Assembly: GCA_014729495.1 (NCBI GenBank)
Contig: WJJV01000006.1
Location: forward strand, 1-38,636
DNA from: Candidatus Woesearchaeota archaeon
Lineage (GTDB): Archaea > Nanobdellota > Nanobdellia > Woesearchaeales > UBA12501
Direction of reading: 5' to 3'
DNA length: 38,636 nt
Shown: positions 2,383 through 31,334 of the stretch, in pieces
How positions within the stretch are numbered: the stretch's first letter is position 1
Layout: every line of letters begins with the position of its first letter
Notes under the pieces: generated by a model
Seen by the model: only the letters and a program-made list of their open reading frames with translations
Database searches by the model: none
Told to the model about the DNA's origin: nothing
Translations under genes and position numbers: made by a program

Positions 2383-2745
2383 TATGAAAAGATAATAAAA
2401 ATTTGACCATTATCTTATAAGCAAATCCTAACCCCACCCTAAAGGGTGTGGTATTAACGGATTTGCATTCTAGATGGTCAAATTTTTAGTCTTGAAAACC
2501 CTCAGAAATCAAAGATGCTCAAAAACCAAAGGTTTTTGGCATGCCGATAATCCAGAAGGATTATCAAGCATTTCTGGGGTGTCAAAAATGCTGTGCATTT
2601 TTGAACATGGCACCTCTCGCACTAAAGTGCGGGGTATTACTTGCGAACAAGTTCGCAAGTCTGATAATCCCAGACGAGCCTGAGAGTCGGGATTATCTTT
2701 AAACCCAATGAAAATGGCTTGGTGCCATTTTCAATAAAAAGAGGG
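2383..2745. repeat. hairpin-cassette repeat, copy 1 (long form)
   Basis: Near-identical to 4926-5187 but with an extra ~111 bp (2496-2606). It consists of consecutive perfect palindromes. One is a three-tier nested hairpin at 2387-2477, with a 14-bp outer stem aaaaatttgaccat/atggtcaaattttt and an 8-bp gcaaatcc/ggatttgc stem. Others are cttgcgaac-aa-gttcgcaag, gataatccc...gggattatc and gaaaatggc..gccattttc. Confidence 0.8.
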
Positions 2746-3765: not shown

Positions 3766-3893
3766 GCCGGGGTGGCGCAATCTGGTACCGCGCAAGCCTG
3801 GAATCTTGCAAAGACAGCTTGTTTCCTTCGGGATACCTTATGGCTGGAAAAGGCCAGAGGCCCGTAATCTGGGTTCAAATCCCAGCCCCGGCG
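3766..3893 (+). tRNA. intron-containing tRNA, provisionally class II tRNA-Ser(GGA)
   Basis: The acceptor stem is perfect (gccgggg/ccccggc) with discriminator g, and the T-arm is ctggg-ttcaaat-cccag. One intron, 3835-3866, is supported by a strict BHB: H cggg 3829-32 / cccg 3861-64, inner helix cctt/gagg, and 3-nt bulges. Its removal leaves a 15-nt variable arm (tcc-ttcg-gga). The candidate anticodon arm is caagc-ctggaa..-gcttg, with ~12 extra nt that lack a convincing BHB, so the anticodon call is tentative. Confidence 0.65.
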
Positions 3894-9567: not shown

Positions 9568-10362
9568 ATGTATCAAAAACTAGACTTATCTGATGTTTCT
9601 TGGAGCAAGAATGATATAAAGAATGCAATAAAGTTGCCTACTCATTTGACAGAAGATCTATCCCACTTCTTAGGGATACATTATGGGGATGGATACATGA
9701 AGGTACAGAAAAGAAGTAAAAGAATAGACTATAGGTTGATTTATAGTGGACATTCCATCAATGAACAAGATTGGTATGAAAATTACATCTCACATTTGAT
9801 TAAAAGATTATTCAATAAAGATGTAGTGCCAAGAAAGACCGTTAAGAACACAATAAGGATATATTTCTGCTCAAAAGCTATTATTGAATTCTTAAATAAG
9901 GCTTGTGAAGTTCCATACAGTCCAAAGATCAATATTAAGATTCCTTCAATAGTCTTAGAATCAGAAGAATTCTGCATTAAGAGTGCTTTCCTTAGGGGTT
10001 TAGCTGATACAGATTTTAGCCTTGTATTCAAAGGAAAATGCAAAAAATATTCTAACCACAAACCTACAATAGACCATAAGACATCAGATATTAGATTACA
10101 TGAAGATATCAAAAAGTTGTTATCAGATCTGGATTTCAATTTCTGTAGTGGAAGAACAAAGAATTTTAGGAAAGGTAAGGCTCATGACAGTTATTATATC
10201 CAGATTAATGGAAAAGAAAACTTGAAAAAGTGGATGAAGAATATAGGATTTTCTTCATCTAATCATCTAACAAAGTATGAAGTATGGAAGAAATATGGTT
10301 TTTTGGTGCCTAAAACAGATATACATAGAAGAAAGTCCTTATTAAAGATATTTGAGCCGTAA
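9568..10362 (+). CDS. free-standing double-motif LAGLIDADG homing endonuclease
   Basis: Two LAGLIDADG-type motifs (FLGIHYGDGYM and FLRGLADTDFS) lie ~100 aa apart. The coding sequence is markedly AT-rich, and the gene sits between two multi-intron tRNA genes. Confidence 0.8.
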   Translation: MYQKLDLSDVSWSKNDIKNAIKLPTHLTEDLSHFLGIHYGDGYMKVQKRSKRIDYRLIYSGHSINEQDWYENYISHLIKRLFNKDVVPRKTVKNTIRIYFCSKAIIEFLNKACEVPYSPKINIKIPSIVLESEEFCIKSAFLRGLADTDFSLVFKGKCKKYSNHKPTIDHKTSDIRLHEDIKKLLSDLDFNFCSGRTKNFRKGKAHDSYYIQINGKENLKKWMKNIGFSSSNHLTKYEVWKKYGFLVPKTDIHRRKSLLKIFEP

Positions 10363-10396
10363 TATTTATAAATGAACCTTATTAGAACAGCATTAA

Positions 10397-10532
10397 GGGC
10401 CCGTGGCTTAGTCTGGAGCTGGTCATAATAATGATCAACGGATCATTAGAGCACACGTTCCTTGTAGACACTGCCTATAAGGATGTGAAACTGATAATCG
10501 TGCGGTCCCGTGTTCAAATCACGGCGGGCCCA
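10397..10532 (+). tRNA. tRNA-Ile(GAT) with two introns (D-loop 10417-10445; anticodon stem 30/31 10458-10489)
   Basis: Acceptor gggcccg/cgggccc with discriminator a; T-arm ccgtg-ttcaaat-cacgg. A strict hBHBh' motif is present: caca (10452-55) / tgtg (10484-87), with inner helix tcctt/aagga. Splicing restores the stem cacga/tcgtg and the loop ctgataa. The D-loop intron H is gtct/ggat (two G-U pairs) and its removal restores agtctggtta. The mature length is 75 nt. Confidence 0.85.
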
Positions 10533-10537
10533 TGGAA

Positions 10538-10640
10538 TAAAGGCAAAATCCCGATGAGCTTGCGAGTCGGGATTATGCCTTTTTACATGCTTGATAATCC
10601 CAGACAAGCTTGCGAGTCGGGATTATCTTTGCATTTGAAT
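10538..10640. repeat. hairpin-cassette family, two gataatccc...gggattatc-type palindromes
   Basis: ggcaaaatcccga-tgagcttgcga-gtcgggattatgcc and gataatccc-agacaagcttgcgagtc-gggattatc are the same module as at 2685-2715 and 5125-5145. They lie directly 3' of tRNA-Ile. Confidence 0.7.
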
Positions 10641-10755
10641 AAGAGTAATCCAGACGAAGTAAGAATTTATTATTCTTTAGAATGGTTAATGATCTATTTG
10701 AGGATAGAGGGTAAGATTATACTGGAGAATATTCTTATCTAAAAATTAATTATTT

Positions 10756-11451
10756 TCACCCTAACTTAATCCCTTTCTCTCTAAGGACTTCAAATGCTTT
10801 CTCTCTTGCATGCTTAAGCTCATGCAGAGTGTGGGCATCGCTGTTGACATAGACCCTGTCTGCTCTTTCCAGCAGGATATCCAGGTTAGCCATGTCAGTC
10901 CTGTTGTTCATCATATTAGCTCCATTTATCTCCATGGCAACACCATAATCATTTGCAGCCTTTATGACCTCTTTGATGTCCACTGCATCACTGAAATGCT
11001 TTATGCATGGATGCCCGATGAATGCTATCTTCTTATGGTACTGCTTTATTGCATTGAGATATCCTTTTGTGATTGTATCTTTGGAGCTTTGGAGCTGATA
11101 TACCTTAGGATGCGCAGAGAGTATCAGGAACTCAGCAGGCTCATCACTGAGATGATCGCAGATATCCCCTTCCTCATTTAGAAGGTCGCCCTCAACACCG
11201 AATATGACCTCAACATCATTGATCTCATTCTTCCATCTATTGATATTATCTCTTCCTGATACCCTGCATTTTCCTTTTGCATCAAGGCAGGCCTGGCTGT
11301 GGTCAGTTATCGCTATCTTATTTAATCCAATCTTTCCTGCAAAATAGACTATCTCAAAAACTGAGTTCATGCCGTCAGAATAGTTCATGCTGTGCATGTG
11401 GTAATCTTCCTTTCCTGGATTGATGATGTTCATACTTGCACCATAATTCAT
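10756..11451 (-). CDS. PHP-domain metal-dependent phosphoesterase
   Basis: DYHMHS..., IAITDHS..., SAHP..., IGHP..., VNSDAH form the PHP His/Asp motif series. The long N-terminal extension in the track (to 11760) overlaps the divergent helicase start and is low-complexity. The ATG at 11451 (or 11433) follows a TATA-like ttaaatata. Confidence 0.7.
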   Translation of the reverse strand: MNYGASMNIINPGKEDYHMHSMNYSDGMNSVFEIVYFAGKIGLNKIAITDHSQACLDAKGKCRVSGRDNINRWKNEINDVEVIFGVEGDLLNEEGDICDHLSDEPAEFLILSAHPKVYQLQSSKDTITKGYLNAIKQYHKKIAFIGHPCIKHFSDAVDIKEVIKAANDYGVAMEINGANMMNNRTDMANLDILLERADRVYVNSDAHTLHELKHAREKAFEVLREKGIKLG

Positions 11452-11596
11452 GATCAATAGCTTATATTTAAGCTTTTTTACTTTTAGCACTATATGATAG
11501 TAATAATATAGGGCAATGATATAGGAACAATAATCTGCTGTACAATAAGGGCATAAATCACAAAAAAGATATAAACAACCAGATTTATGCAGGAGT

Positions 11597-13186
11597 ATGC
11601 CAAAAAAAGTGATCCTTAACATAAACCAGCCAACAGACAACCCAGCAGTGGATCTTGTTCTTGACACACTGGAAAAGAAGAAGCAGGCCCTTGTATTCGT
11701 CAACACAAAGAGAGGCGCAGAGAGAGCAGCTGAGGACATTGCCAAAAAGACCAACATCAAGGATGCTGCTTACAAGGCCCAGCTTGAAAAGATTTCACAC
11801 GATATTCTTAAGGCGCTTCCAAAGCCCACAAGGCAGTGCGAGCGAGAGGCATTCTGCATAAAGAAAGGCATAGCTTTCCATCATGCAGGCCTTACCCAGA
11901 AGCAGAAGACGCTGATAGAGGATGCTTTCAGGGAGAGAGTGATAAAGATAATAGCATGCACCCCTACTCTTTCATTCGGGCTCAACCTTCCTGCATTCCG
12001 CGCTATCATCCGAGACCTCAAGAGATATACAAGGCATGGCCTGGACTGGATTCCAGTCCTTGAGTATCATCAGATGGCTGGAAGGTGTGGCCGTCCTGGC
12101 TCTGACAAGTGGGGCGAGGCCATATGCATTGCGCAGAATGAGTCAGACAAGGAGAAGATCACTGAGATGTTCCTCAATGGAGAATCAGAGGAGATATTCT
12201 CAAAGCTGGCAGTAGAGCCTGTTCTTCGTACTTATGTGCTTTCTCTTATTGCATCTGGGTTTGCGTCAAGCCAGGATGACCTTGAGGCATTCTTCTCAAA
12301 GACTTTCTGGGCTCACCAGTATGAGGACATGGACAAGCTTGGAGGCATAATCGACAGGATGGTGAGCCTTCTTGTTGATTTTGAGTTTGTGGAGTCATCA
12401 GGCAGCAGGTCAAGAGAGTTTGTGTCAGCTGATGAGGTCGGAGGGAACAGCAGACTGGCTGCAACAAGGCTCGGCAAGAGGGTTGCTGAACTGTACATAG
12501 ATCCCCTGACTGCGCATAAGATGATAATTGCCATGCAGAGGGCTTCTGAGAAGATAGTGAATGAGTTCTCATTCATCCACCTTGTGTCATCCTGCCCTGA
12601 GCTAAGGCCCCTGCTCAAGGTCAGGTCAAAGGAATACGAGGAGATAGAGTCAAAGATAGCAGAACATGAGTCAAGCATAATTGTGCTTGAACCCTCACTG
12701 TATGATCCAGAGTATGAGGAGTTCCAGAACTCCATAAAGACTGCCCTGTTCTTCAATGACTGGATTGAAGAGAATGATGAAGAGGACCTTCTTGAGAAAT
12801 ATAATATAAGGCCTGGAGAGATAAAGGTCAAGCGCGATCTCGCTGACTGGCTGCTTTATACAGCAGAGGAGCTTGCCAGGCTGACAAAGAAGGCAGGTCT
12901 TCTGAAGGTCATAATCAAGTCAAGGATGAGACTGAGGTATGGTGTCAAAGAGGAGCTGCTGCCTCTGCTCAGGCTTGAAGGCATAGGAAGAGTGAGGGCA
13001 AGGAAGCTCTTCAGGAATGGCATAATAGATTCAGGAGAGGTAAGGAAGGCTGACCTGATGAAGCTTGTGCAGATATTAGGCAAGAACACTGCTATAAGGG
13101 TCAAGAAGCAGGTAGGCCAGGACTTTGACAAGGCCAAAGTGCCTGAGAGGAGAAGGAAAGGACAGGTAAGCCTGAAGGATTACTGA
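11597..13186 (+). CDS. hel308: Hel308/Ski2-like helicase, C-terminal portion only (RecA2 + winged helix + ratchet + HhH); RecA1 missing
   Basis: VFVNTKRGAE..., FHHAGL..., IACTPTLSFGLNLPA and QMAGRCGRPG correspond to motifs IV-VI. The C-terminal LRLEGIGRVRARKLF is an HhH. There is no Walker A or DExH motif. An in-frame stop at 11546-11548 closes the frame upstream, and an aggag lies just before the ATG. Confidence 0.8.
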   Translation: MPKKVILNINQPTDNPAVDLVLDTLEKKKQALVFVNTKRGAERAAEDIAKKTNIKDAAYKAQLEKISHDILKALPKPTRQCEREAFCIKKGIAFHHAGLTQKQKTLIEDAFRERVIKIIACTPTLSFGLNLPAFRAIIRDLKRYTRHGLDWIPVLEYHQMAGRCGRPGSDKWGEAICIAQNESDKEKITEMFLNGESEEIFSKLAVEPVLRTYVLSLIASGFASSQDDLEAFFSKTFWAHQYEDMDKLGGIIDRMVSLLVDFEFVESSGSRSREFVSADEVGGNSRLAATRLGKRVAELYIDPLTAHKMIIAMQRASEKIVNEFSFIHLVSSCPELRPLLKVRSKEYEEIESKIAEHESSIIVLEPSLYDPEYEEFQNSIKTALFFNDWIEENDEEDLLEKYNIRPGEIKVKRDLADWLLYTAEELARLTKKAGLLKVIIKSRMRLRYGVKEELLPLLRLEGIGRVRARKLFRNGIIDSGEVRKADLMKLVQILGKNTAIRVKKQVGQDFDKAKVPERRRKGQVSLKDY

Positions 13187-14953: not shown

Positions 14954-15025
14954 GCCCCTTTAGTATAATGGATAGTACACCTGGTTGCGGTCCAGGAGAT
15001 CGGGGTTCAATCCCTCGGAGGGGCG
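14954..15025 (+). tRNA. tRNA-Arg(GCG), intron-less
   Basis: Cloverleaf: gcccctt/gaggggc, D gtat/gtac, anticodon arm cctgg-ttgcggt-ccagg, T-arm cgggg-ttcaatc-cctcg, discriminator g. Confidence 0.85.
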
Positions 15026-15118
15026 TTATTTTAGTTGATTGTTACAGGTTTATTCTTATTTCGTGGGGCCGAGCAAAGCGAGCGCCCCACATGACTGCTT
15101 CCGAGGGTAGCAACGCTC

Positions 15119-15141
15119 GTTCAATCCCTCGGAGGGGCGTT
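15119..15141 (+). repeat. 23-nt direct duplicate of the tRNA-Arg 3' end (att-like)
   Basis: gttcaatccctcggaggggcgtt at 15005-15027 is repeated exactly at 15119-15141. The copy has no matching T-stem 5' strand, so it is not a second tRNA. Confidence 0.7.
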
Positions 15142-15192
15142 GAGTTTGTTTTATAGTATTTTATATATCTTAAATGAGTTATGAGAATTAAT

Positions 15193-15480
15193 CCTTGCCT
15201 CTCAGGCAAGCGCTGCAAATCCGACCGCGGAGAGGTGGCGCAGGATATTAGTTTATTTTCTCGCAACTTTTTCCTAGCCTCGCCAAAAAGACTCTGCTAA
15301 TCTGATATTGGCGAGGTGGCAAATGCTTTTAGTCTATTTTCTTGCAAATTAATCCTAGCCTCTCCGATAAGATGCTGCTAATGCTATGTTGGCGAGGTGG
15401 CGAAAGTTTTAGGGAATTGTCTTAAGGTTTCTTCCTAGCCTCGCTGACAAGCGCTGCAAATCTGACCACAGCGAGGTGGC
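15193..15480 (+). repeat. periodic hairpin array A (4 units, starts 15193/15273/15354/15434)
   Basis: Units of 47-48 nt follow the form cctagcctc[gc/tc]c...gctgc.aat...g[gc/ga]gaggtggc at an 80-81 bp period. Each of units 2-4 is followed ~8 nt later by TTTTAG. Unit 4 is the exact reverse complement of unit 1 of array B. Confidence 0.85.
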
Positions 15481-15489
15481 GCATTCTTT

Positions 15490-15885
15490 TAGCTTTAGCC
15501 AGGCAGCAAAAGTTGAGGCAGCAACATAACTTTTTTGAGGCAACAACAAGGGATGAATACTGAGTGTAGATGAAAAATCCGCTACGCAAGTCCTGATTTT
15601 TCCTTTACGAATAAGGCAGACCTGAAGGGGCAGACCGTGTACGAATCCAATGTTGTTGCTGCTGCCGTAAAGATAGAAAATTTCCTTCTTGACAGTGTAC
15701 GAATCCAATGTTGTTGTTACAAATGCGAAGCTTTTGTAACTAAGAAAATGCAAAGCATTTTCTGTTGCTGCCCTATAACCCCTAAGTTATTCTTGACAGT
15801 GTATTAATCCATTATTGTTGCTGGCGACATAAATAGAATATTGCCTTATCTATCGTTGTTCTTACAAATGCAAAGCATTTGAAGT
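15490..15885. repeat. inner repeat block A (GCAACAAC-linked hairpins), inverted homolog of 23150-23540
   Basis: gtgtacgaatccaatgttgttgc is repeated three times, alongside the palindromes gaaaatgc-aa-gcattttc and gttacaaatgc-gaa-gcttttgtaac. The reverse complement aligns with 23200-23370. Confidence 0.75.
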
Positions 15886-15990
15886 GACACGTGAGCTAAG
15901 AGGGGCTTCACTTTGCTCAGCCCTCGGCTGATATCAGTTATTCAGAGGGCTTTTGACTGAAATGATATAAGCCTTATTACAACCTCAAAC

Positions 15991-16020: not shown

Positions 16021-18810
16021 ATGGAATACTCAGAGCTTGCAAAAGTCTATGAACAGCTTGAGTCAACCACAAAAAGGCTTGAGAAAACATGGATAATATC
16101 AGGATTTCTGAAGAAAGCTGTTAAGAGCAGCTCAGGCACTGACAAGAATGAGATTTACATGTTGAGCATGCTGCTGCAGGGAAGGGTTTTTCCCCCATGG
16201 GATGAGCGCAGGCTTGGTGTTGCTGCAAGGATGATAATCAAGGCAGTGAGCGTTGCCACTGGAGCAGATGCTTCTGGAATAGAATCAGAATGGAAGGACA
16301 TAGGAGATATAGGAAAGGTTGCAGAGAAACTAGTCAGCTCCAAAAGGCAGACCACACTTTTCTCCCAGGCGCTCAGTGTTGAGAAGGTATTCAGCAATCT
16401 TCAGAAGCTGCCATCTCTTGAAGGCCAGGGCTCTGTTGACCAGAAGATACAGCTGATAGCAGAGCTTCTTACAAGTGCTGAACCTATTGAAGCAAGGTAT
16501 ATTGTGCGTACAGTCCTTGAGGATCTCAGGGTTGGGGTTGCTGACGGCACACTGAGGGATGCGATTGTCTGGGCTTTCTTCAGCGACAGCATCAGCATAA
16601 ACTATGATGAGGAAAAGAAGACAATCAACCCTGATGACAGGGAGGAATACAACAAGTATGTGGATGCTGTGCAGTCTGCTTATGATGTCTGCAATGACTT
16701 CTCAAGAGTCATAGAATCAGCAAGGTCTGGAGGGCTTGAGGCTATCAGGAAGATAGGCCTTGATGTGGGAAAGCCAATAAAAGTCATGCTCTACCAGAAG
16801 GCCACAGGAATAGAGAATGCATTTGAGAGAGTGGGAAAGCCTGCTGCATTCGAGTACAAATACGATGGATTCCGATGCATTACAGGACATACTCCAATAT
16901 ATGTCTACAAAAAAGGATTGATATCTGTTAAAGACGTCAAAAAAGAGGATCTTGTTTTGTCTCATAAGGGATATTTCAGGAGAGTTGAAGCAGTAAATAA
17001 AAGAAGAATAGACAAAAAAGAAAGATTATTTAAGATTCAATCTTTCCTTGGGAATCAATTTAGGATATCAGAGGGCCATAAGATTCTTGTAGAAAGGCAC
17101 GGAAAGGTTAGGTGGGTTAACTCTGAGAGTCTTACCAGAACTGATCATGTTGTATTTCCAATACCAAGATTCAGGATCAAAGACCAGCCTGCTGAGAAAG
17201 AGCTTGTTCTCAAGAATGCTTCCAATTATTCAAAATCAATCAAGATTTCCAATGACTTCTTTAGGTTCCTGGGATACTGGATTGGCGATGGGTTCACAAA
17301 TGACTACCACAATACAGAAAGAGTTGGTTTAGTCTTCAATAAGAACGATAAGAATAAGATCAATAAGTATTCCAATATAATCCAAAGAGATATCAAGATA
17401 GACAGGATAACCCAAAGCAGACAGAGAGGCATGATATCCCTTTATTGGAGGGATAAACCTTTAAGAATATGGCTTTCCACTAATTTCCGGAGGGAATGGA
17501 AAGGTAAAATGATTCCAGATTGGTTTTATAATATCTCCAAATCCCAGTTTCTGGCCTTTCTTGAGGGGTGGACTGAATCTGATGGCCATACAGATTCAGC
17601 CGGAAGAACTTCAATAACAACTAAAGAGAGAGATCTTGCAATGTTTGCTCAACTGATCGGGTTGAAGCAGGGTATCATAATTGCACTAAAAAAAATAAGG
17701 ATTTATGGAAAGACATACTATAAGCTGATTATTTTAAAGTCAGAGAAGCATTATAAACTCAGAAGCGATTATCTAGCTGTTAAAATATTAAAATATGAAG
17801 AAATCAAGTATCCTGATCCAAGGACAATGCTTTATAATATCCAGGTTAAAGGTGATAAGAGTTACTGTACAACTCTTCTTTCTCTTCATAACTGCCAGAT
17901 ACACAAAAACAACCCTGAAATAAAGATTTACACAAGAAGGCTGGAGGATGTGACAAAGCAGTTTCCTGAAGTAAAGAAGTATGTTGAGGAGAATATAAAA
18001 GGAGAGGGATTCATCCTGGACTCAGAGGCTGTGGGTTATGATCCCAAGACAGGAGAGTATCTTCCTTTCCAGAGCATAAGCCAGAGGATAAAGAGAAAGC
18101 ATAACATAGATGAGATGGCAGGAAAGTACCCTGTTGAGCTAAACATATTTGATGTTGTCAGCTATGAAGGAAAGAACATGATGAAAGAACCTTTCAGGAA
18201 GAGAAGAGAGCTTATAGAGAGCATAGTGACAGAAGAGCCTAAAAAGATTGTGCTGGCAAAGCAGATAATAACAGACGACCCTGAAGAGGCAGAGAGGTTC
18301 TATAAGGAAAGCCTGAACGCCGGAGAGGAAGGAGTCATGGCAAAGAATCTTGATGGAGCCTACAAGCCAGGAAGCAGGGTGGGCTTTGGTGTCAAGATAA
18401 AGCCGGTCATGGAGACCCTTGACCTGACTATTGTAGGAGCAGAATGGGGAACTGGCAAGAGAAGCGGATGGCTGAGCTCATTTGTCCTGGCATGCAGGGA
18501 TGACTCAGGAGAGTTCTTTGAGATAGGCAAGGTAGGCACAGGCATAAAGGAGCTTGAAGGAACAGGAGTGACATTTGATTACCTCACTGAACTGCTCAAG
18601 CCATTGGTAATTGATGAGAAAGGCAGGCAGGTAAGGATAAAACCTTCTGTTGTTGTTGAGATAAACTATGAGGAGATCCAGAAATCACCTACATACTCAT
18701 CAGGATTTGCGCTGAGATTCCCCAGGCTGATAAAGCTCAGGGAAGACAGAGGGCCTGAGGATGTGTCATCAATCTCTTTCATTGAAGAGCTGTATTATGG
18801 CCAGAAATGA
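16021..18810 (+). CDS. lig: ATP-dependent DNA ligase (archaeal Lig1 type) containing a 339-aa intein
   Basis: The N-terminal DNA-binding domain is followed by motif I, split as FEYKYDGFR | intein | CQIHK. Downstream are FILDSEAV, EGVMAK, the OB-fold and LRFPRLIKLREDR. The extein length of 590 aa is typical. Confidence 0.9.
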   Translation: MEYSELAKVYEQLESTTKRLEKTWIISGFLKKAVKSSSGTDKNEIYMLSMLLQGRVFPPWDERRLGVAARMIIKAVSVATGADASGIESEWKDIGDIGKVAEKLVSSKRQTTLFSQALSVEKVFSNLQKLPSLEGQGSVDQKIQLIAELLTSAEPIEARYIVRTVLEDLRVGVADGTLRDAIVWAFFSDSISINYDEEKKTINPDDREEYNKYVDAVQSAYDVCNDFSRVIESARSGGLEAIRKIGLDVGKPIKVMLYQKATGIENAFERVGKPAAFEYKYDGFRCITGHTPIYVYKKGLISVKDVKKEDLVLSHKGYFRRVEAVNKRRIDKKERLFKIQSFLGNQFRISEGHKILVERHGKVRWVNSESLTRTDHVVFPIPRFRIKDQPAEKELVLKNASNYSKSIKISNDFFRFLGYWIGDGFTNDYHNTERVGLVFNKNDKNKINKYSNIIQRDIKIDRITQSRQRGMISLYWRDKPLRIWLSTNFRREWKGKMIPDWFYNISKSQFLAFLEGWTESDGHTDSAGRTSITTKERDLAMFAQLIGLKQGIIIALKKIRIYGKTYYKLIILKSEKHYKLRSDYLAVKILKYEEIKYPDPRTMLYNIQVKGDKSYCTTLLSLHNCQIHKNNPEIKIYTRRLEDVTKQFPEVKKYVEENIKGEGFILDSEAVGYDPKTGEYLPFQSISQRIKRKHNIDEMAGKYPVELNIFDVVSYEGKNMMKEPFRKRRELIESIVTEEPKKIVLAKQIITDDPEEAERFYKESLNAGEEGVMAKNLDGAYKPGSRVGFGVKIKPVMETLDLTIVGAEWGTGKRSGWLSSFVLACRDDSGEFFEIGKVGTGIKELEGTGVTFDYLTELLKPLVIDEKGRQVRIKPSVVVEINYEEIQKSPTYSSGFALRFPRLIKLREDRGPEDVSSISFIEELYYGQK
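16876..17892 (+). mobile_element. intein with a LAGLIDADG homing-endonuclease domain in ligase motif I
   Basis: It begins with Cys (CITGHTP) and ends with LSLHN, followed by the +1 Cys of CQIHK. Internal motifs are FLGYWIGDGF and FLEGWTESDGH. The composition is AT-rich relative to the exteins. Confidence 0.85.
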
Positions 18811-18895
18811 CAGCTAATATTAAAGAGTGTAAGAAAGAGAAGTCAGAAAATAGAGATCAGAAAGAATAAATGAGAAAAAAATAATAAAATAAGGC

Positions 18896-19426
18896 CTAAT
18901 CATAGGAAGGCCTTGCAATGTAGTTCTTTGAGTCCTCTCCAAGCAATGCGTCATTCTCAAGCCCATCCCTCAGTGTTGCCTTTATGGCATTGGGCTCGTG
19001 CAGGGATGATACTTTAAGGTTGATATCCTCTGTCTTGATCATCTTGTATCCTGCAGGAAGCTCATCATACTCAAACCTCTTGATGTTCGCATCGCTTGCT
19101 CCGCCAACATAAGCTATCACTACAGGCTTGACAGGATCGTCACCAAAGTTCCTCATGTCAAATGTCATTGACTTTACAATGCCCTCATCATCTGGATCAA
19201 TCCTGTACCTCAGAGTTATAGGATTGCCAAGGTCAGAAGGAAGTATCTCATAAGTGTCTGCAGGGAGTTCAGGCTCATCTTCCTCAACATCCGGCTCTGG
19301 TGAGACATCTACCTCAGTATCAGGTGCAGGTGAGCTTACTTCTGGAACAGGCTCCTCACTCTGACTGCATGCAGCTGTAAGAAATAGAATTGCAAGAACA
19401 ACTGTAAATATTGCTATTTTTCTCAT
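18896..19426 (-). CDS. secreted lipoprotein-like protein (176 aa)
   Basis: MRKIAIFTVVLAILFLTAAC is a signal peptide with a lipobox-like LTAAC, followed by an acidic Pro/Glu linker. The track start at 19429 is TTG; an ATG lies at 19426. Confidence 0.55.
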   Translation of the reverse strand: MRKIAIFTVVLAILFLTAACSQSEEPVPEVSSPAPDTEVDVSPEPDVEEDEPELPADTYEILPSDLGNPITLRYRIDPDDEGIVKSMTFDMRNFGDDPVKPVVIAYVGGASDANIKRFEYDELPAGYKMIKTEDINLKVSSLHEPNAIKATLRDGLENDALLGEDSKNYIARPSYD

Positions 19427-19544
19427 CAAATCACCCCAATCTCAGCTTTTATTGATATAATCTGCTTATGGATATGCTGAATACCTCATATTTATAAATG
19501 TATTCATCAAAAACTATTTAAATGAGAGTTCATAATTATATATC

Positions 19545-23086: not shown

Positions 23087-23149
23087 TAGATGGAGCAAGT
23101 AAGCTTTTTCTTTAATAGATTTAGATGAGTCAAAGAGGAAAGTTTATCT

Positions 23150-23540
23150 TATACATCAGCAATAACAATGGAAGTCAAGATATATTTATTATTATGGCAA
23201 CAACAACATCGGATAATGTAATATTCTATCTATGTTGGCAGCAGCAACAACTTTGGATTCGTACACGGTCAAATGATAATATTTTAAGTTAATAACGGCA
23301 ACAACAGAAAATGCTTTGCATTTTCTTAGTTGCAAAAGCTCTGCATTTGCAACAACAATATTGCCAGCAGACGGCCATGCTCACTTTGTTCGCATGTCCT
23401 ACTCGGCACCCCGGAGGGGAAACAGGAAATCAAAGATTTCCTTAGTTGCGCTCGCTTCGCTCGGCAACCATCCCCCGCCTCGTCTGCGGCATTGTTGTTG
23501 CCTGGAATATCCTTCTGCTGCCTGACTAAATCCAAAAGAA
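23150..23540. repeat. inner repeat block B, inverted homolog of 15490-15885
   Basis: It shares ggcagcagcaacaac.ttggattcgtacacggtc and gcaacagaaaatgctttgcattttcttagtt.caaaagc...gcatttg.aacaacaa with the reverse complement of block A. Confidence 0.75.
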
Positions 23541-23543
23541 AAC

Positions 23544-23995
23544 GCCACCTCGCTGTGGTCAGATTTGCAGCGCTTGTCAGCGAGGCTAGGAGTATGTTGC
23601 AATTGAATAAACTAAAAGGAATAGCCACCTCTCCGTGGTCGGGTTCTTTGCGCTTATCGGAGAGGCTAGGAGTTTAAATGTTCTGAAAAATCACTTAAAG
23701 CCATTGCCACCTCGCCAACATAGCATTAGCAGCATCTTATTGGCAAGGCTAGGAGAAGAGTACAATACAATCTTCTTAAAGACATTGCCACCTCTCCGAC
23801 ATAGGGATAGCAGCAACTTATCGGAGAGGCTAGGGAAAGAGTGCAATGCAATCCCAAAAAATCCATTGCCACCTCTCCGACATCAGGATAGCAGCATCTT
23901 ATCGGAGAGGCTAGGAATACTAAAGATAAACTTTCCATATAGACTTTAGCCACCTCTCCGTGGCCGGATTTGCAGTGCTTGTCAGCGAGGCTAGG
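23544..23995 (-). repeat. periodic hairpin array B (6 units, starts 23544/23624/23706/23787/23868/23949)
   Basis: 47-48-nt hairpins of the form gccacctc[gc/tc]c...gcagc...g[gc/ga]gaggctagg at an 80-82 bp period. They lie directly 3' of the minus-strand island (stop at 24072). The inter-hairpin segments are also homologous to each other. Confidence 0.85.
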
Positions 23996-24071
23996 AGAAA
24001 ACTCAGAATTATCCACAAAAAGCAAGATACAATTAATCAGAAAAAGCTTGGATTTCATAAACTAACTTCTT

Positions 24072-30393: not shown

Positions 30394-30810
30394 TCAAGTA
30401 TTGATCTCTCTGGGAAGAACGCTCTTGACAAACTCAAGAGCTGACTTTGTCTTCTCTTCAGAAACCTCTTCTGCTCCATATACAGCTAAATTTCTCAGTT
30501 TCCTCAGTTCATCAAAATTATCCAGCATCCCAGAATCCATTTCAGAATAATTCTCTTTCAGATAAGCTATCAGGACTTCATGCGAGTAAGGCTTGTACCC
30601 ATCTGCGCAAAGAACTGCCTGCGCTGCTTCCCTCAGGCTTTCATAGACATCCTCAAATATGAATCCCGAATTATCATCTGAGAGGGTCTGTGATTCAATA
30701 TATTTCAGCCTATCCTCTGCCTTTTTCATAAGCGAAGCTGCCATCTCATTGTCTGGCTGCTGTTTCACTGCTTTTTTCTCTTTCATGTAAAACTCAAAGC
30801 TTCTTATCAT
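30394..30810 (-). CDS. HEPN-domain protein (toxin partner of MNT)
   Basis: A ~138-aa helical protein with ...LREAAQAVLCADGYKPYSHEVLIAYL... and ELRKLRNLAVYG (the R-x-x-R-N-x-x-x-Y region typical of PF05168-type HEPN). It overlaps the upstream nucleotidyltransferase gene by 4 nt. Confidence 0.65.
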   Translation of the reverse strand: MIRSFEFYMKEKKAVKQQPDNEMAASLMKKAEDRLKYIESQTLSDDNSGFIFEDVYESLREAAQAVLCADGYKPYSHEVLIAYLKENYSEMDSGMLDNFDELRKLRNLAVYGAEEVSEEKTKSALEFVKSVLPREINT

Positions 30811-31334
30811 TTTATCAGTCTCAAAAAACCATGGAGCGTGATTCCATTCGCAAGATTGTTCCTGAACTCCTTGCTGGCTTTGTCAAGCTTTATCTTATGG
30901 ATGTTTATCCTCCTTTTCAGGCTTTTCTCGTATTTTGCTGTGTTGATGTCTTTTTTCTTGTCTGTTATGACTGCAATGTCAATGTCTGATCTGCCTGTGT
31001 CCTCTCCTCTTGCATAGCTGCCGAAAAGCACTACTGCTTCTGGCAGGTACTTCTCTGCAATCTCCCTGATCACTCCGCAGCTTGATATGCTGTAGATGTT
31101 TGATGCTCTTTTCAGGGCAACAAACTCTTTGTTGTCAGTATTTGCCAGGTAGTTGTCTGTCACCCTGGTCTTTTCCTTTGAAACAAGGTCCTGTTTCACA
31201 AGCTTCCTCAGGATCTTCAGGACTCCTGCAGGCGACAGGCCTGTGAGCCTTGCTATCTCCCTCAGGTGGAAGCTTGTGTCTGGATTCTGCAGGAACATAT
31301 CCATGACCCTGTCTGTGTTTGTTTTTGTGAACAT
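30807..31334 (-). CDS. wHTH-fused minimal nucleotidyltransferase (MNT antitoxin-type)
   Basis: The N-terminal HLREIARLTGLSPAGVLKILRKLVKQDLV is a wHTH. VVLFGSYARGEDTGRSDIDIAVI matches the GS-x10-D-x-D NTase motif. Confidence 0.75.
   Translation of the reverse strand: MFTKTNTDRVMDMFLQNPDTSFHLREIARLTGLSPAGVLKILRKLVKQDLVSKEKTRVTDNYLANTDNKEFVALKRASNIYSISSCGVIREIAEKYLPEAVVLFGSYARGEDTGRSDIDIAVITDKKKDINTAKYEKSLKRRINIHKIKLDKASKEFRNNLANGITLHGFLRLIK

What the first reader, a model, noticed from the sequence alone, without database searches (positions are those of the whole stretch)
15193..15480. Second, inverted four-unit copy of the hairpin array; hairpin plus TTTTAG suggests stacked terminators or processed small RNAs
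Units start at 15193, 15273, 15354 and 15434, giving periods of 80, 81 and 80 bp, in the opposite orientation to array B.

On the plus strand here (equivalent to the minus strand of array B), the arms allow G-U pairs, and units 2-4 are followed ~8 nt later by a conserved TTTTAG. The array lies downstream of plus-strand genes (PHP, tRNA-Arg), just as array B lies downstream of the minus-strand island.

Both arrays are therefore co-directional with incoming transcription and face the shared central segment. This is compatible with multi-copy terminator or insulator function, or with 3'-derived structured RNAs. Unit 4 is 47/47 identical to the reverse complement of unit 1 of array B, while the outer units diverge. 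That suggests ongoing gene conversion at the inner boundaries.
Basis: partly seen in the sequence, partly recalled or inferred. Interest (0 to 1): 0.7.

Follow-up and report, generated by a model that had tools for sequence, protein, structure and literature searches.

The report
Paired tandem-hairpin RNA-like arrays in archaeon
A four-unit array of 80-base hairpin repeats, mirrored by a six-unit copy 8 kb away in a DPANN (Woesearchaeota-like) archaeon, is real and structurally constrained, is absent from the nearest relatives, and looks more like a small lineage-specific non-coding RNA gene with its own promoter than a stack of terminators.

Summary
Four ~80-bp units on the + strand (15192-15512) each carry a 9-11-bp hairpin. 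They mirror six units on the - strand (23512-23998).

A covariance model scores all ten units at 68-81 bits. Nothing else in the window, in 39 relatives' loci or in viral contigs exceeds about 15 bits.

The stem pairs in 96.7% of cells and three pairs show compensatory changes. G-U pairs and T-runs (11 vs 1) mark one strand. Hairpin cores diverge far less than linkers (10/144 vs 39/103 differences, p=3e-9).

Both arrays belong to imperfect 0.7-0.9-kb inverted repeats that also hold other hairpin modules and a conserved ncRNA candidate ("X"). These flank housekeeping genes: intein-bearing DNA ligase, nitroreductase, FtsZ and diphthine synthase.

Four syntenic relatives have only 0-60 bp where array B sits, so the arrays are lineage-specific insertions.

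T-tract terminators already precede both arrays. A canonical TTTATATA box lies 32 nt upstream of unit 1, the spacing of real promoters in this window, and a T6 tract follows unit 4.

Best reading: a self-transcribed ~345-nt four-hairpin ncRNA plus a decaying inverted paralogue. Its function is inferred, not shown. Rivals are terminator or stabiliser stacks, selfish palindromic repeats, and DNA-level binding sites. Interest is moderate.

The parts
15160..15167 (+). Candidate archaeal TATA box (TTTATATA) for array A. Predicted transcription start about 15189-15191.
   Evidence: It lies 32 nt upstream of unit A1, the same spacing as the tRNA at 3766 (32), the ligase ATG (30) and the PHP gene (32). 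Inference from sequence; no transcript data.
15192..15271 (+). Unit A1. Type I loop, degenerate 5' arm TCCTTGCC.
   Evidence: 71.4 bits; 85% core identity to B6.
15272..15352 (+). Unit A2. Type II loop; the stem extends to about 10 bp.
   Evidence: 79.4 bits.
15353..15432 (+). Unit A3. Type II loop; a hybrid unit with one stem mismatch.
   Evidence: 71.3 bits; 94% core identity to B3.
15433..15512 (+). Unit A4. Type I loop; 49/49 identical to the reverse complement of B1.
   Evidence: I4; 81.5 bits.
15531..15536 (+). T6 tract after the last unit. Candidate archaeal terminator of the array A transcript; absent from the mirror copy.
   Evidence: Sequence. Runs inside array A are only T4.
15517..15666 (+). 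Module Y: a core of about 95 nt enclosed by a long GGCARCAACA / TGTTGYTGCC stem. It sits at the same relative position as X in the right-hand repeat.
   Evidence: I2, I3. Folding z-scores are -2.8 and -3.0.
15628..15881 (+). Inner repeat modules. Three copies of TTGACAGTGTAYNAATCCAWTRTTGTTG, plus small hairpins with GC-RAA-GC tops at 15716-15740, 15745-15765 and 15858-15885.
   Evidence: (D4, D8, I6, I13, I14, I16). There is an A-T to G-C compensatory difference between the left and right copies (sequence).
23199..23363 (-). Mirror copy of the inner repeat modules.
   Evidence: 79-97% identity to the left copy.
23342..23502 (-). ncRNA candidate X, enclosed by a 12-bp GGCAACAACAAT / ATTGTTGTTGCC stem. 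Strand is uncertain; the - strand folds better.
   Evidence: Its core 23362-23419 is 90% identical to L174:14-71, whereas coding DNA is about 70-75% identical. Stems covary. Folds: -71 kcal/mol (z -4.4) on the - strand vs -60.5 on the + strand. No Rfam match.
23512..23998 (-). Array B: six units B1-B6. The GCCACCTC heads lie at 23544, 23624, 23706, 23787, 23868 and 23949. It mirrors array A.
   Evidence: (68.6-81 bits).
23101..23111 (+). AAGCTTTTTCT: the T5 terminator of the diphthine synthase gene, and the left arm of a perfect 11-bp inverted repeat bracketing the whole right-hand insert.
   Evidence: I4.
24039..24049 (-). AAGCTTTTTCT on the - strand: the T5 terminator of the 365-aa gene, lying upstream of array B, and the right arm of the 11-bp inverted repeat.
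   Evidence: I4.
15119..15139 (+). 21-nt exact direct repeat of the tRNA-Arg 3' end (15005-15025). An att-like scar just upstream of the array A promoter (context).
   Evidence: (D9).

Best explanation
Array A is most likely an independently transcribed, lineage-specific non-coding RNA gene. In this model, transcription starts about 30 nt downstream of the TATA box at 15160, runs through four tandem modules of about 80 nt, and ends at the T6 tract at 15531-15536, giving an RNA of about 345 nt. Each module has an 11-pair hairpin, CC-[UA]-GCCUCNCNN...NNGNGAGGU-GG. The hairpin presents a 23-25-nt loop with invariant AAG..C....A positions and is followed by a U-rich linker.

Array B would be the inverted paralogue of the same locus. 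It was inserted between two convergent genes, has since expanded to six units, and is partly decayed: it has a degenerate TATA, internal T5 and T6 runs, and units with stem mismatches. It now lies directly upstream of the conserved ncRNA candidate X.

Shown:
- The units and their hairpin are real.
- There is selection or correction for pairing.
- The hairpin core is more constrained than the linker.
- The units have strand polarity.
- The arrays are absent from relatives.

Inferred:
- Transcription from its own promoter.
- The working mode, which I take to be a multivalent display of identical hairpins, either as a binding platform or sponge for an RNA-binding protein or as a substrate for processing into unit-length hairpin RNAs.
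For: - Reality and specificity of the units.
- Hairpin: 96.7% of cells paired, three pairs with compensatory change, and RNAalifold independently returns the same stem.
- Strand polarity: one invariant G-U plus three internal G-U pairs, and no A-C cells, on the forward strand. T>=4 runs in linkers number 11, against 1 A>=4 run. Summed MFE is -173 kcal/mol forward vs -156 for the reverse complement.
- Constraint: among mirror-orthologous unit pairs the cores have 10/144 differences and the linkers 39/103, Fisher p=3e-9. 22 of 63 alignment columns are invariant, including loop positions.
- Promoter: TTTATATA at 15160 lies 32 nt before unit 1. Genuine promoters in the window sit at 30-32 nt.
- Terminators already precede the arrays.
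- There is no conserved ORF, and the small SD+ATG ORFs in the units differ in length: 9, 12, 19 and 46 aa.
- The two arrays are collinear mirror images (A1~B6, A3~B3, A4=B1), so the multi-unit array predates the inverted duplication and has been kept in both copies.
Against: - There are no transcript data.
- The promoter call rests on one motif at the right distance. By my rough estimate from the motif density listed, the chance of this is about 0.002 window-wide and about 0.007 within AT-rich intergenic DNA.
- Array B has no TATA at -30 (the best candidate is TTAATTGT at about -40).
- Folding energies of single units are not exceptional against shuffles (z from +0.07 to -2.2).
- The family is found nowhere else: not in 657 kb of relatives' loci, viral contigs, the metagenome pattern scan, phages or plasmids. 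Covariation therefore comes only from ten paralogous units, and hairpin-templated correction or gene conversion could mimic selection.
- No partner protein or target is identified. Searches for sequences complementary to the loops gave only chance-level hits.
Confidence: 0.4

Rival explanations
1. Cis-acting terminator or 3'-end stabiliser stacks. Hairpin-plus-U-tract modules at the ends of two converging transcription zones would stop read-through into the ligase-FtsZ-Dph5 block and/or protect upstream transcripts from 3' exonucleases, as REP/BIME elements do in bacteria.
For: - Both arrays are co-oriented with the genes upstream of them.
- T-runs follow nearly every hairpin on that strand.
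- G-U polarity agrees with that strand.
- Array B begins only 76 nt after the stop codon of the 365-aa gene.
Against: - Separate T5 and T-rich terminators lie between the upstream genes and the arrays.
- Array A has its own TATA at -32.
- The T4 runs sit 5-9 nt from the stem and are weak for archaeal termination, which needs no hairpin (established knowledge).
- Four relatives with the same convergent gene pair manage with 0-60 bp of intergenic DNA.
- A different, cross-genus-conserved hairpin followed directly by a T-run (GATAATCCCAGAC..GTCGGGATTATC-TTT) shows what terminator-type hairpins look like in this lineage.
Confidence: 0.2
2. Selfish or neutral palindromic repeat DNA, similar to REP/BIME, BOX or MITE elements. 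A modular, hairpin-rich non-coding element of about 0.9 kb was copied in inverted orientation into a second intergenic site, and its 80-bp module number changes by slippage or unequal crossing-over. In this view the hairpins reflect the copying or insertion mechanism rather than a host function.
For: - The arrays are lineage-specific insertions absent from relatives.
- Unit number varies (4 vs 6), there is a recent B4/B5 duplication (92% core identity), and hybrid units A3 and B6 look like products of recombination between unit types.
- The right-hand copy is bracketed by a perfect 11-bp inverted repeat, as if it had been inserted into the loop of a palindromic bidirectional terminator.
- The left copy is bracketed by inverted copies of another mini-hairpin (I1).
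- A tRNA-Arg att-like scar lies next to the left copy.
Against: - No transposase, RAYT-type or integrase gene was found among the window ORFs scanned with Pfam; a few short ORFs were not scanned.
- There are only two loci in 38.6 kb and no further copy in any collection searched.
- No target-site duplication is seen.
- Cores are much more conserved than linkers after the duplication (p=3e-9), and three compensatory stem changes argue for continuing constraint.
Confidence: 0.25
3. DNA-level protein-binding arrays. Two opposed sets of directional sites flanking the ligase-FtsZ block would act as centromere-like sites (as in sopC), as polar replication-fork barriers, or as recombination substrates that invert the 8-kb segment.
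For: - The two arrays are opposed around an 8-kb segment.
- Tandem units each containing an inverted repeat resemble plasmid centromeres such as sopC (my own knowledge).
- The region is inversion-prone: the 177-aa/ligase block is inverted relative to the relatives.
- Tracts of 92-100% identity about 80 bp long could support homologous recombination.
Against: - Compensatory arm changes, G-T polarity and strand-biased T-runs are not expected for duplex binding sites.
- No partition, Tus-like or recombinase gene is nearby.
- No Orc1/Cdc6 gene or ORB-like dyad was seen (sequence).
- The GC-skew turn near 23 kb simply follows gene orientation.
Confidence: 0.1
4. The arrays encode repeated small peptides. 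Type II units carry GAGGTGGCA(A)ATG, which is a Shine-Dalgarno sequence plus a start codon, and an 81-bp period equals 27 codons.
For: - GAGGTG is the Shine-Dalgarno motif this genome uses.
- A 110-aa ORF reads through B6-B4 with a 27-aa repeat.
Against: - Periods of 80, 81 and 82 bp break the reading frame.
- The ORFs from the unit ATGs are 9, 12, 19 and 46 aa long and unrelated.
- Type I units have no ATG.
- The conservation pattern follows the stem, not codons.
Confidence: 0.02

Closest known systems
Multi-hairpin protein-sponge sRNAs (CsrB/CsrC, RsmY/RsmZ type)
   Same: A promoter-driven, terminator-ended non-coding transcript made of repeated similar hairpins that contain ribosome-binding-site-like sequence. 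Here every unit contains GAGGUGG.
   Different: In CsrB and RsmZ the GGA motifs sit in hairpin loops and bind CsrA. To my knowledge CsrA is bacterial and not known in archaea. Here the SD-like motif is inside the stem, the conserved loop motif is different, the units are long (80 nt) and strictly tandem, and no binding protein is known. This is a resemblance in design only.
Type III toxin-antitoxin antitoxin arrays (ToxI, CptI, TenpI)
   Same: A promoter followed by a tandem array of structured RNA repeats, followed by a terminator. The array is processed into unit-length RNAs.
   Different: Those repeats are 34-45 nt long and are immediately followed by the endoribonuclease toxin gene. Here the next gene downstream is a housekeeping DNA ligase with its own promoter about 500 bp away, and array B has no downstream gene on its strand.
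Bacterial REP/BIME and pneumococcal BOX elements
   Same: Intergenic, hairpin-forming, modular repeats whose number of internal tandem modules varies. They are often found at 3' ends between convergent genes and are proposed to act as terminators or mRNA stabilisers.
   Different: REPs are 20-40 nt long, number in the hundreds per genome, carry GTAG or CGTC heads, alternate in orientation within BIMEs, and depend on RAYT transposases. BOX elements are Streptococcus-specific A-B(n)-C modules. Here the hairpins are 47-49 nt in 80-nt direct units, only two loci are seen, there is no RAYT gene, and the host is archaeal (DPANN).
CRISPR arrays
   Same: A regular period of about 80 bp with a palindromic "repeat" (about 48 bp) and a "spacer" (about 32 bp).
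   Different: The repeats are only 63-100% identical to one another. The "spacers" are homologous to each other (36-81%) and T-rich. No cas gene was found among the window ORFs scanned, and there is no Rfam CRISPR-DR hit in the arrays.

Membership tests
Any Rfam family (including terminators, C/D and H/ACA sRNAs, ribozymes, CRISPR-DR) | Covariance-model score at or above the family's gathering threshold | tested here: not met
   At the gathering threshold only three tRNAs were found. In permissive searches of both repeat regions the only non-tRNA hits were sR35 at 13.9 bits (threshold 60) and snR13 at 21.2 bits (threshold 47), both outside the arrays.
CRISPR array | Near-identical direct repeats separated by unrelated unique spacers | tested here: not met
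   Core identity among units is 63-100%. Linkers are mutually homologous (36-81%) and T-rich.
CRISPR array | Associated cas genes | tested here: not met
   Pfam scans of 30 ORFs across the 38.6-kb window show no Cas domains. The rest of the genome is not available.
Type III TA antitoxin array (ToxI-like) | Toxin endoribonuclease gene immediately downstream, on the same strand | tested here: not met
   Downstream of array A is the DNA ligase with its own TATA. Downstream of array B are non-coding modules and then antisense Dph5.
REP/BIME | 20-40-nt palindromes with a conserved GTAG or CGTC head, alternating orientation in clusters, and high copy number | tested here: not met
   The hairpins are 47-49 nt with a TCCTAGCC head. 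All units within an array are direct. Only the ten units are found in the window. Genome-wide copy number is not testable.
REP/BIME | Cognate RAYT (Y1 transposase) gene in the genome | not testable with these tools
   None is present in the window. The genome is not in any searchable collection.
MITE or other non-autonomous transposon | Terminal inverted repeats plus target-site duplication, and multiple dispersed copies | tested here: inconclusive
   The right-hand copy is bracketed by a perfect 11-bp inverted repeat. However, that repeat doubles as the T5 terminators of the two flanking genes. No direct-repeat target-site duplication was seen, and only two copies are visible.
Bacterial-type intrinsic terminator | GC-rich stem immediately followed by a U-tract | tested here: not met
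   The T4 runs start 5-9 nt after the stem, and the loops are 23-25 nt long. Archaeal termination needs only oligo-T (established knowledge).
Integron attC array | R''/R' core sites (RYYYAAC ... GTTRRRY), cassette ORFs between the sites, and intI nearby | tested here: not met
   The unit ends are CCUAGCC...GGUGG. The linkers are 32 nt long with no ORF. No integrase gene is in the window.
Archaeal replication origin (ORB clusters) | ORB or mini-ORB dyads flanking an AT-rich unwinding element next to orc1/cdc6 | tested here: not met
   No Orc1/Cdc6 gene is in the window. The two clusters are 8 kb apart and flank housekeeping genes. I checked for an ORB-like dyad only by eye.

The most novel reading that the evidence does not exclude
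The two arrays could be a new class of archaeal regulatory RNA. In this reading each is a self-transcribed RNA displaying four to six copies of one conserved hairpin, whose stem sequesters this genome's Shine-Dalgarno motif. It would have arisen by expansion of the leader of a conserved small ncRNA (X) and would work as a multivalent sponge or scaffold for an RNA-binding protein, or for the ribosome's anti-SD end, in a DPANN archaeon. In addition, the inverted pair could allow the ligase-FtsZ cassette to flip by recombination.
Probability: 0.15. Interest if true: 0.7.

Novelty: new variant of a known kind. Interest (0 to 1): 0.45.

Why it matters
DPANN archaea have tiny, streamlined genomes, and almost nothing is known about their non-coding RNAs. 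About 1.8 kb of lineage-specific, structurally constrained hairpin arrays bracketing cell-division and replication genes is unexpected ballast for such a genome.

If the arrays are transcribed as predicted, they would be a tractable example of how a tandem-hairpin RNA gene is born, duplicated and decays. They would also point to an unidentified RNA-binding partner.

If they are selfish repeats, they would be a REP/BOX-like element family in archaea. I know of no described example, and two literature searches found none.

In either case the finding as originally framed (stacked terminators) needs revising.

Tried and rejected
- Genome-collection pattern scan. I used a 17-base gapped pattern that was too loose.
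- A stricter pattern in metagenome contigs and viral contigs gave 0 hits. A looser viral scan gave 21 single hits at or below 15 bits with the covariance model.
- Exact-protein look-ups of four window proteins found nothing on record, so no longer contig of this genome is available.
- The closest relatives are distant: 73% identity for Dph5 and 43% for the 365-aa neighbour. A same-genus comparison is therefore impossible.
- BLAST against phages and plasmids gave no match.
- Rfam searches, at gathering and permissive thresholds, found nothing in the arrays.
- Two literature searches found no description of such arrays in DPANN or other archaea.
- A coding reading is rejected.
- A mobile element carrying the central 8 kb is rejected, because the gene order inside and outside the segment matches the relatives.
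- A third copy of the tRNA att repeat, which would bound an island, was not found.
- A search for antisense targets of the loops within the window gave only chance-level hits.
- An alternative fold (loop GCGCUGC pairing with GUGGCGC), seen in the MFE structures of A1 and A4, is rejected as not conserved in B2 or B6.
- The GC-skew maximum near 23 kb simply follows gene orientation and is not evidence for a terminus.

Full report
**Context**

The window is archaeal. Two of its three tRNA genes carry introns, and G+C is about 43%. The diphthine synthase gene has its best homologues (73% and 69% identity) in MAGs, and many lower-ranked hits are labelled Candidatus Woesearchaeota or Nanoarchaeota. 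The organism is therefore a DPANN archaeon.

Its own genome is not in any collection I could search. The nearest relatives are distant: the 365-aa neighbour of array B has no homologue above 43% identity.

**Checking the observation**

The four units are real.
- The conserved head TCCT(A/T)GCCTC starts at 15192, 15272, 15353 and 15433, giving periods of 80, 81 and 80.
- TRF finds the 81-bp period in both arrays.
- The mirror array has six units, not four. Their GCCACCTC heads are at 23544, 23624, 23706, 23787, 23868 and 23949.
- A covariance model built from the ten units scores all of them at 68.6-81.5 bits. The next best hit in the whole window, with filters off, is 9.6 bits.

Each unit has a 9-bp stem, GCCUCNCNN/NNGNGAGGU. 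RNAalifold independently extends it by a CC/GG clamp across a 2-nt bulge.

On the + strand of array A:
- 96.7% of cells are standard pairs, against 39-63% when the 3' partner is slid by 1-3 columns.
- Three pairs show changes on both sides (G-C to U-A, C-G to U-A, G-C to A-U).
- One G-U is invariant and three more G-U pairs are internal.
- None of the unpaired cells is A-C, which is what G-U pairing on the opposite strand would produce.

Unit A4 equals the reverse complement of B1 over 49 nt, and 92% over 80 nt.

**Anatomy beyond the given coordinates**

The arrays are the outer parts of two imperfect inverted repeats, roughly 15189-15863 and 23199-24002.

There are two unit subtypes. Type I has the loop AAGCGCUGCAAAUCYGACC and type II has AAGAUGCUGCUAAUGCUAUG. 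Read from the outside in, array A is I-II-II-I and array B is I-II-II-II-I-I. The best cross-array matches are A1~B6 (85% core identity), A3~B3 (94%) and A4=B1 (100%). B4~B5 (92%) is a local duplication. A multi-unit array therefore existed before the inverted duplication.

Identity between the two repeats rises inward: 55% (promoter region), 70%, 79%, 92% and 97%.

Inward of the arrays lie further modules:
- Many copies of GGCARCAACA / TGTTGYTGCC (13 matches against 3.5 expected).
- Long stems formed by that motif around a core Y on the left (15517-15666) and a core X on the right (23342-23502).
- Three, and at least two, copies respectively of a ~30-nt TTGACAGTGTAC..TGTTGTTG module.
- Several mini-hairpins with GC-RAA-GC tops. 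One of these shows an A-T to G-C compensatory difference between the left and right copies (sequence).

**Surroundings and relatives**

The 8 kb between the repeats encodes housekeeping proteins:
- a DNA ligase interrupted by a LAGLIDADG intein
- a 177-aa protein
- a nitroreductase
- FtsZ
- diphthine synthase

Four relatives (L174, L175/L176, L178, L179) share the gene order Hel308 - PHP - tRNA-Arg ... 179 aa - ligase - nitroreductase - FtsZ - Dph5 - 360 aa - 180 aa - large surface proteins.

In all four, Dph5 and the convergent 360-aa gene are separated by only 0-60 bp or overlap. In the window that gap is 985 bp. None of the relatives has tandem repeats there. The covariance model finds nothing in 657 kb of relatives' loci.

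The arrays are therefore insertions specific to this lineage. The central segment is not mobile cargo. The only rearrangement inside it is an inversion of the 177-aa/ligase pair.

The right-hand insert is bracketed by a perfect 11-bp inverted repeat, AAGCTTTTTCT / AGAAAAAGCTT. Each arm is the T5 terminator of the adjacent convergent gene. This looks as though the 927-bp block entered the loop of a palindromic bidirectional terminator (inference).

**Which strand, and is it transcribed on its own?**

Three independent features mark the same strand, + for array A and - for array B:
- the G-U pairs
- T>=4 runs in the linkers, 11 against 1 A>=4 run
- slightly better folding, summed MFE -173 vs -156 kcal/mol

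This genome's promoters are easy to read. TTTATATA or TTTATAAA sits 30-32 nt upstream of the ligase ATG, the PHP ATG and the tRNA at 3766. The same TTTATATA occurs at 15160-15167, 32 nt upstream of unit A1. From the motif density, I estimate the chance of such a placement at about 0.002 window-wide and about 0.007 within intergenic DNA.

Other sequence features fit this picture.
- Inside array A the T-runs are only T4.
- A T6 run follows the last unit at 15531-15536.
- Upstream, tRNA-Arg has its own TTATTTT tract.
- The 365-aa gene has a T5 tract before array B.

I therefore read array A as its own transcription unit of about 345 nt, not as the terminator of its neighbours.

Array B looks like a decaying copy. 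Its best TATA-like motif (TTAATTGT) lies about 40 nt upstream. It contains T5 and T6 runs after B3 and B5. It lacks the terminal T6 block and runs straight into X.

**Constraint**

Between mirror-orthologous units, the hairpin cores differ at 10 of 144 positions and the linkers at 39 of 103 (Fisher p=3e-9). In the unit alignment, 22 of 63 columns are invariant, including the loop positions AAG, C and A. This argues against purely neutral tandem DNA, although gene conversion among cores could contribute.

The 3' arm contains GAGGTG. Elsewhere in the window that hexamer occurs mostly as the Shine-Dalgarno sequence of operon-internal genes, and in the hairpin it is fully paired. Type II units even have an ATG 3-4 nt downstream of it. 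However, the resulting ORFs are 9, 12, 19 and 46 aa long and unrelated, and the 80/81/82-bp periods break the frame. Coding is rejected.

**Mechanism**

I commit, at 0.4 confidence, to a self-transcribed multi-hairpin ncRNA. Its repeated, sequence-conserved hairpins would act as a multivalent platform (a protein sponge or scaffold) or as a precursor processed into unit-length hairpins.

The rivals are:
- terminator or 3'-stabiliser stacks (0.2)
- selfish REP/BOX/MITE-like repeats (0.25)
- DNA-level binding or recombination sites (0.1)
- peptides (0.02)

The steps shown are structure, polarity, constraint and lineage specificity. The steps inferred are the transcription start and end and the mode of action.

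**Comparison with known systems**

No Rfam family matches. The arrays fail the defining features of CRISPR arrays, ToxI-type antitoxin arrays, REP/BIME, attC arrays, bacterial intrinsic terminators and ORB origins (see the membership table).

In design the arrays resemble CsrB/RsmZ-type multi-hairpin sponge RNAs. In genomic behaviour they resemble modular intergenic palindromic repeats such as BOX. They are a member of neither. No literature on such arrays in DPANN was found.

**Verdict**

This is a real, orphan, structurally constrained tandem-hairpin locus present as an inverted pair. The terminator reading is weakened. Novelty is a new variant of a known kind. Interest is moderate (0.45), limited by the absence of transcript data and of close relatives.

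Noticed in passing
window 23342-23502 (core 23362-23419); L174:3-105: Candidate conserved ncRNA "X". A 58-nt core is 90% identical between the window and relative L174, although coding DNA is only about 70-75% identical. It is closed by long stems of unrelated sequence (GGCAACAACAAU vs CGCCGCCAU) with compensatory inner-stem changes. The window copy has a 48-nt insertion. The - strand folds better in both genomes. There is no Rfam match. In L174 it lies just upstream of the 179-aa gene, whereas in the window it is embedded in the right-hand inverted repeat.
   Followed up: partly
window 15005-15025 and 15119-15139: The exact 21-nt 3' end of tRNA-Arg(GCG) is repeated 114 bp downstream (0 expected by chance). 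This looks like an att-like scar of an integrase-mediated insertion that has been largely deleted. In relative L175 the same tRNA is followed by a DUF3800 gene island.
   Followed up: partly
window 2661-2701 and 10592-10631 (partial copy 10560-10580); L175:1619-1661: A second hairpin family, GATAATCCCAGAC-N10-GTCGGGATTATC, directly followed by a T-run. It is 91-95% identical across genera. It may be a conserved terminator-type hairpin or a small RNA.
   Followed up: no
window 15064-15089 (+), 15900-15925 (-), 23444-23469 (-), and inside X at about 23378-23398: A mini-hairpin family with variable 5-7-bp stems and a conserved top, C-GA-GC-RAA-GC-GA-G (tandem G.A/A.G pairs capped by a GC-AAA-GC triloop). 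The stems covary between copies and between the window and L174 (CAUGC/GCAUG vs CAUUC/GAAUG).
   Followed up: partly
window 16021-18810: The DNA ligase is 929 aa, against 585 aa in the relatives. The extra ~1.06 kb (about 16873-17928) is a LAGLIDADG intein that is absent from the relatives.
   Followed up: partly
window 16021-19429 vs L175:4772-7118 and L174:1-2489: The two-gene block (177/179-aa protein plus ligase) is inverted in the window relative to both relatives, while the flanking genes keep their orientation.
   Followed up: partly
window 9568-13186: The Hel308-type helicase ORF (11597-13186) starts at the Helicase_C domain. Upstream lie a LAGLIDADG ORF (9568-10362) and a PHP-domain ORF on the opposite strand (10756-11760). 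The helicase gene may be interrupted by an intein or otherwise disrupted.
   Followed up: no
window 30394-31334: A HEPN plus nucleotidyltransferase (MNT-type) gene pair, i.e. a likely toxin-antitoxin module, lies within the operon of large surface proteins.
   Followed up: no
window 15546-15598: A weak C/D-box sRNA-like match (Rfam sR35, 13.9 bits against a threshold of 60) inside module Y. The box spacing is non-canonical, so this is probably chance.
   Followed up: partly
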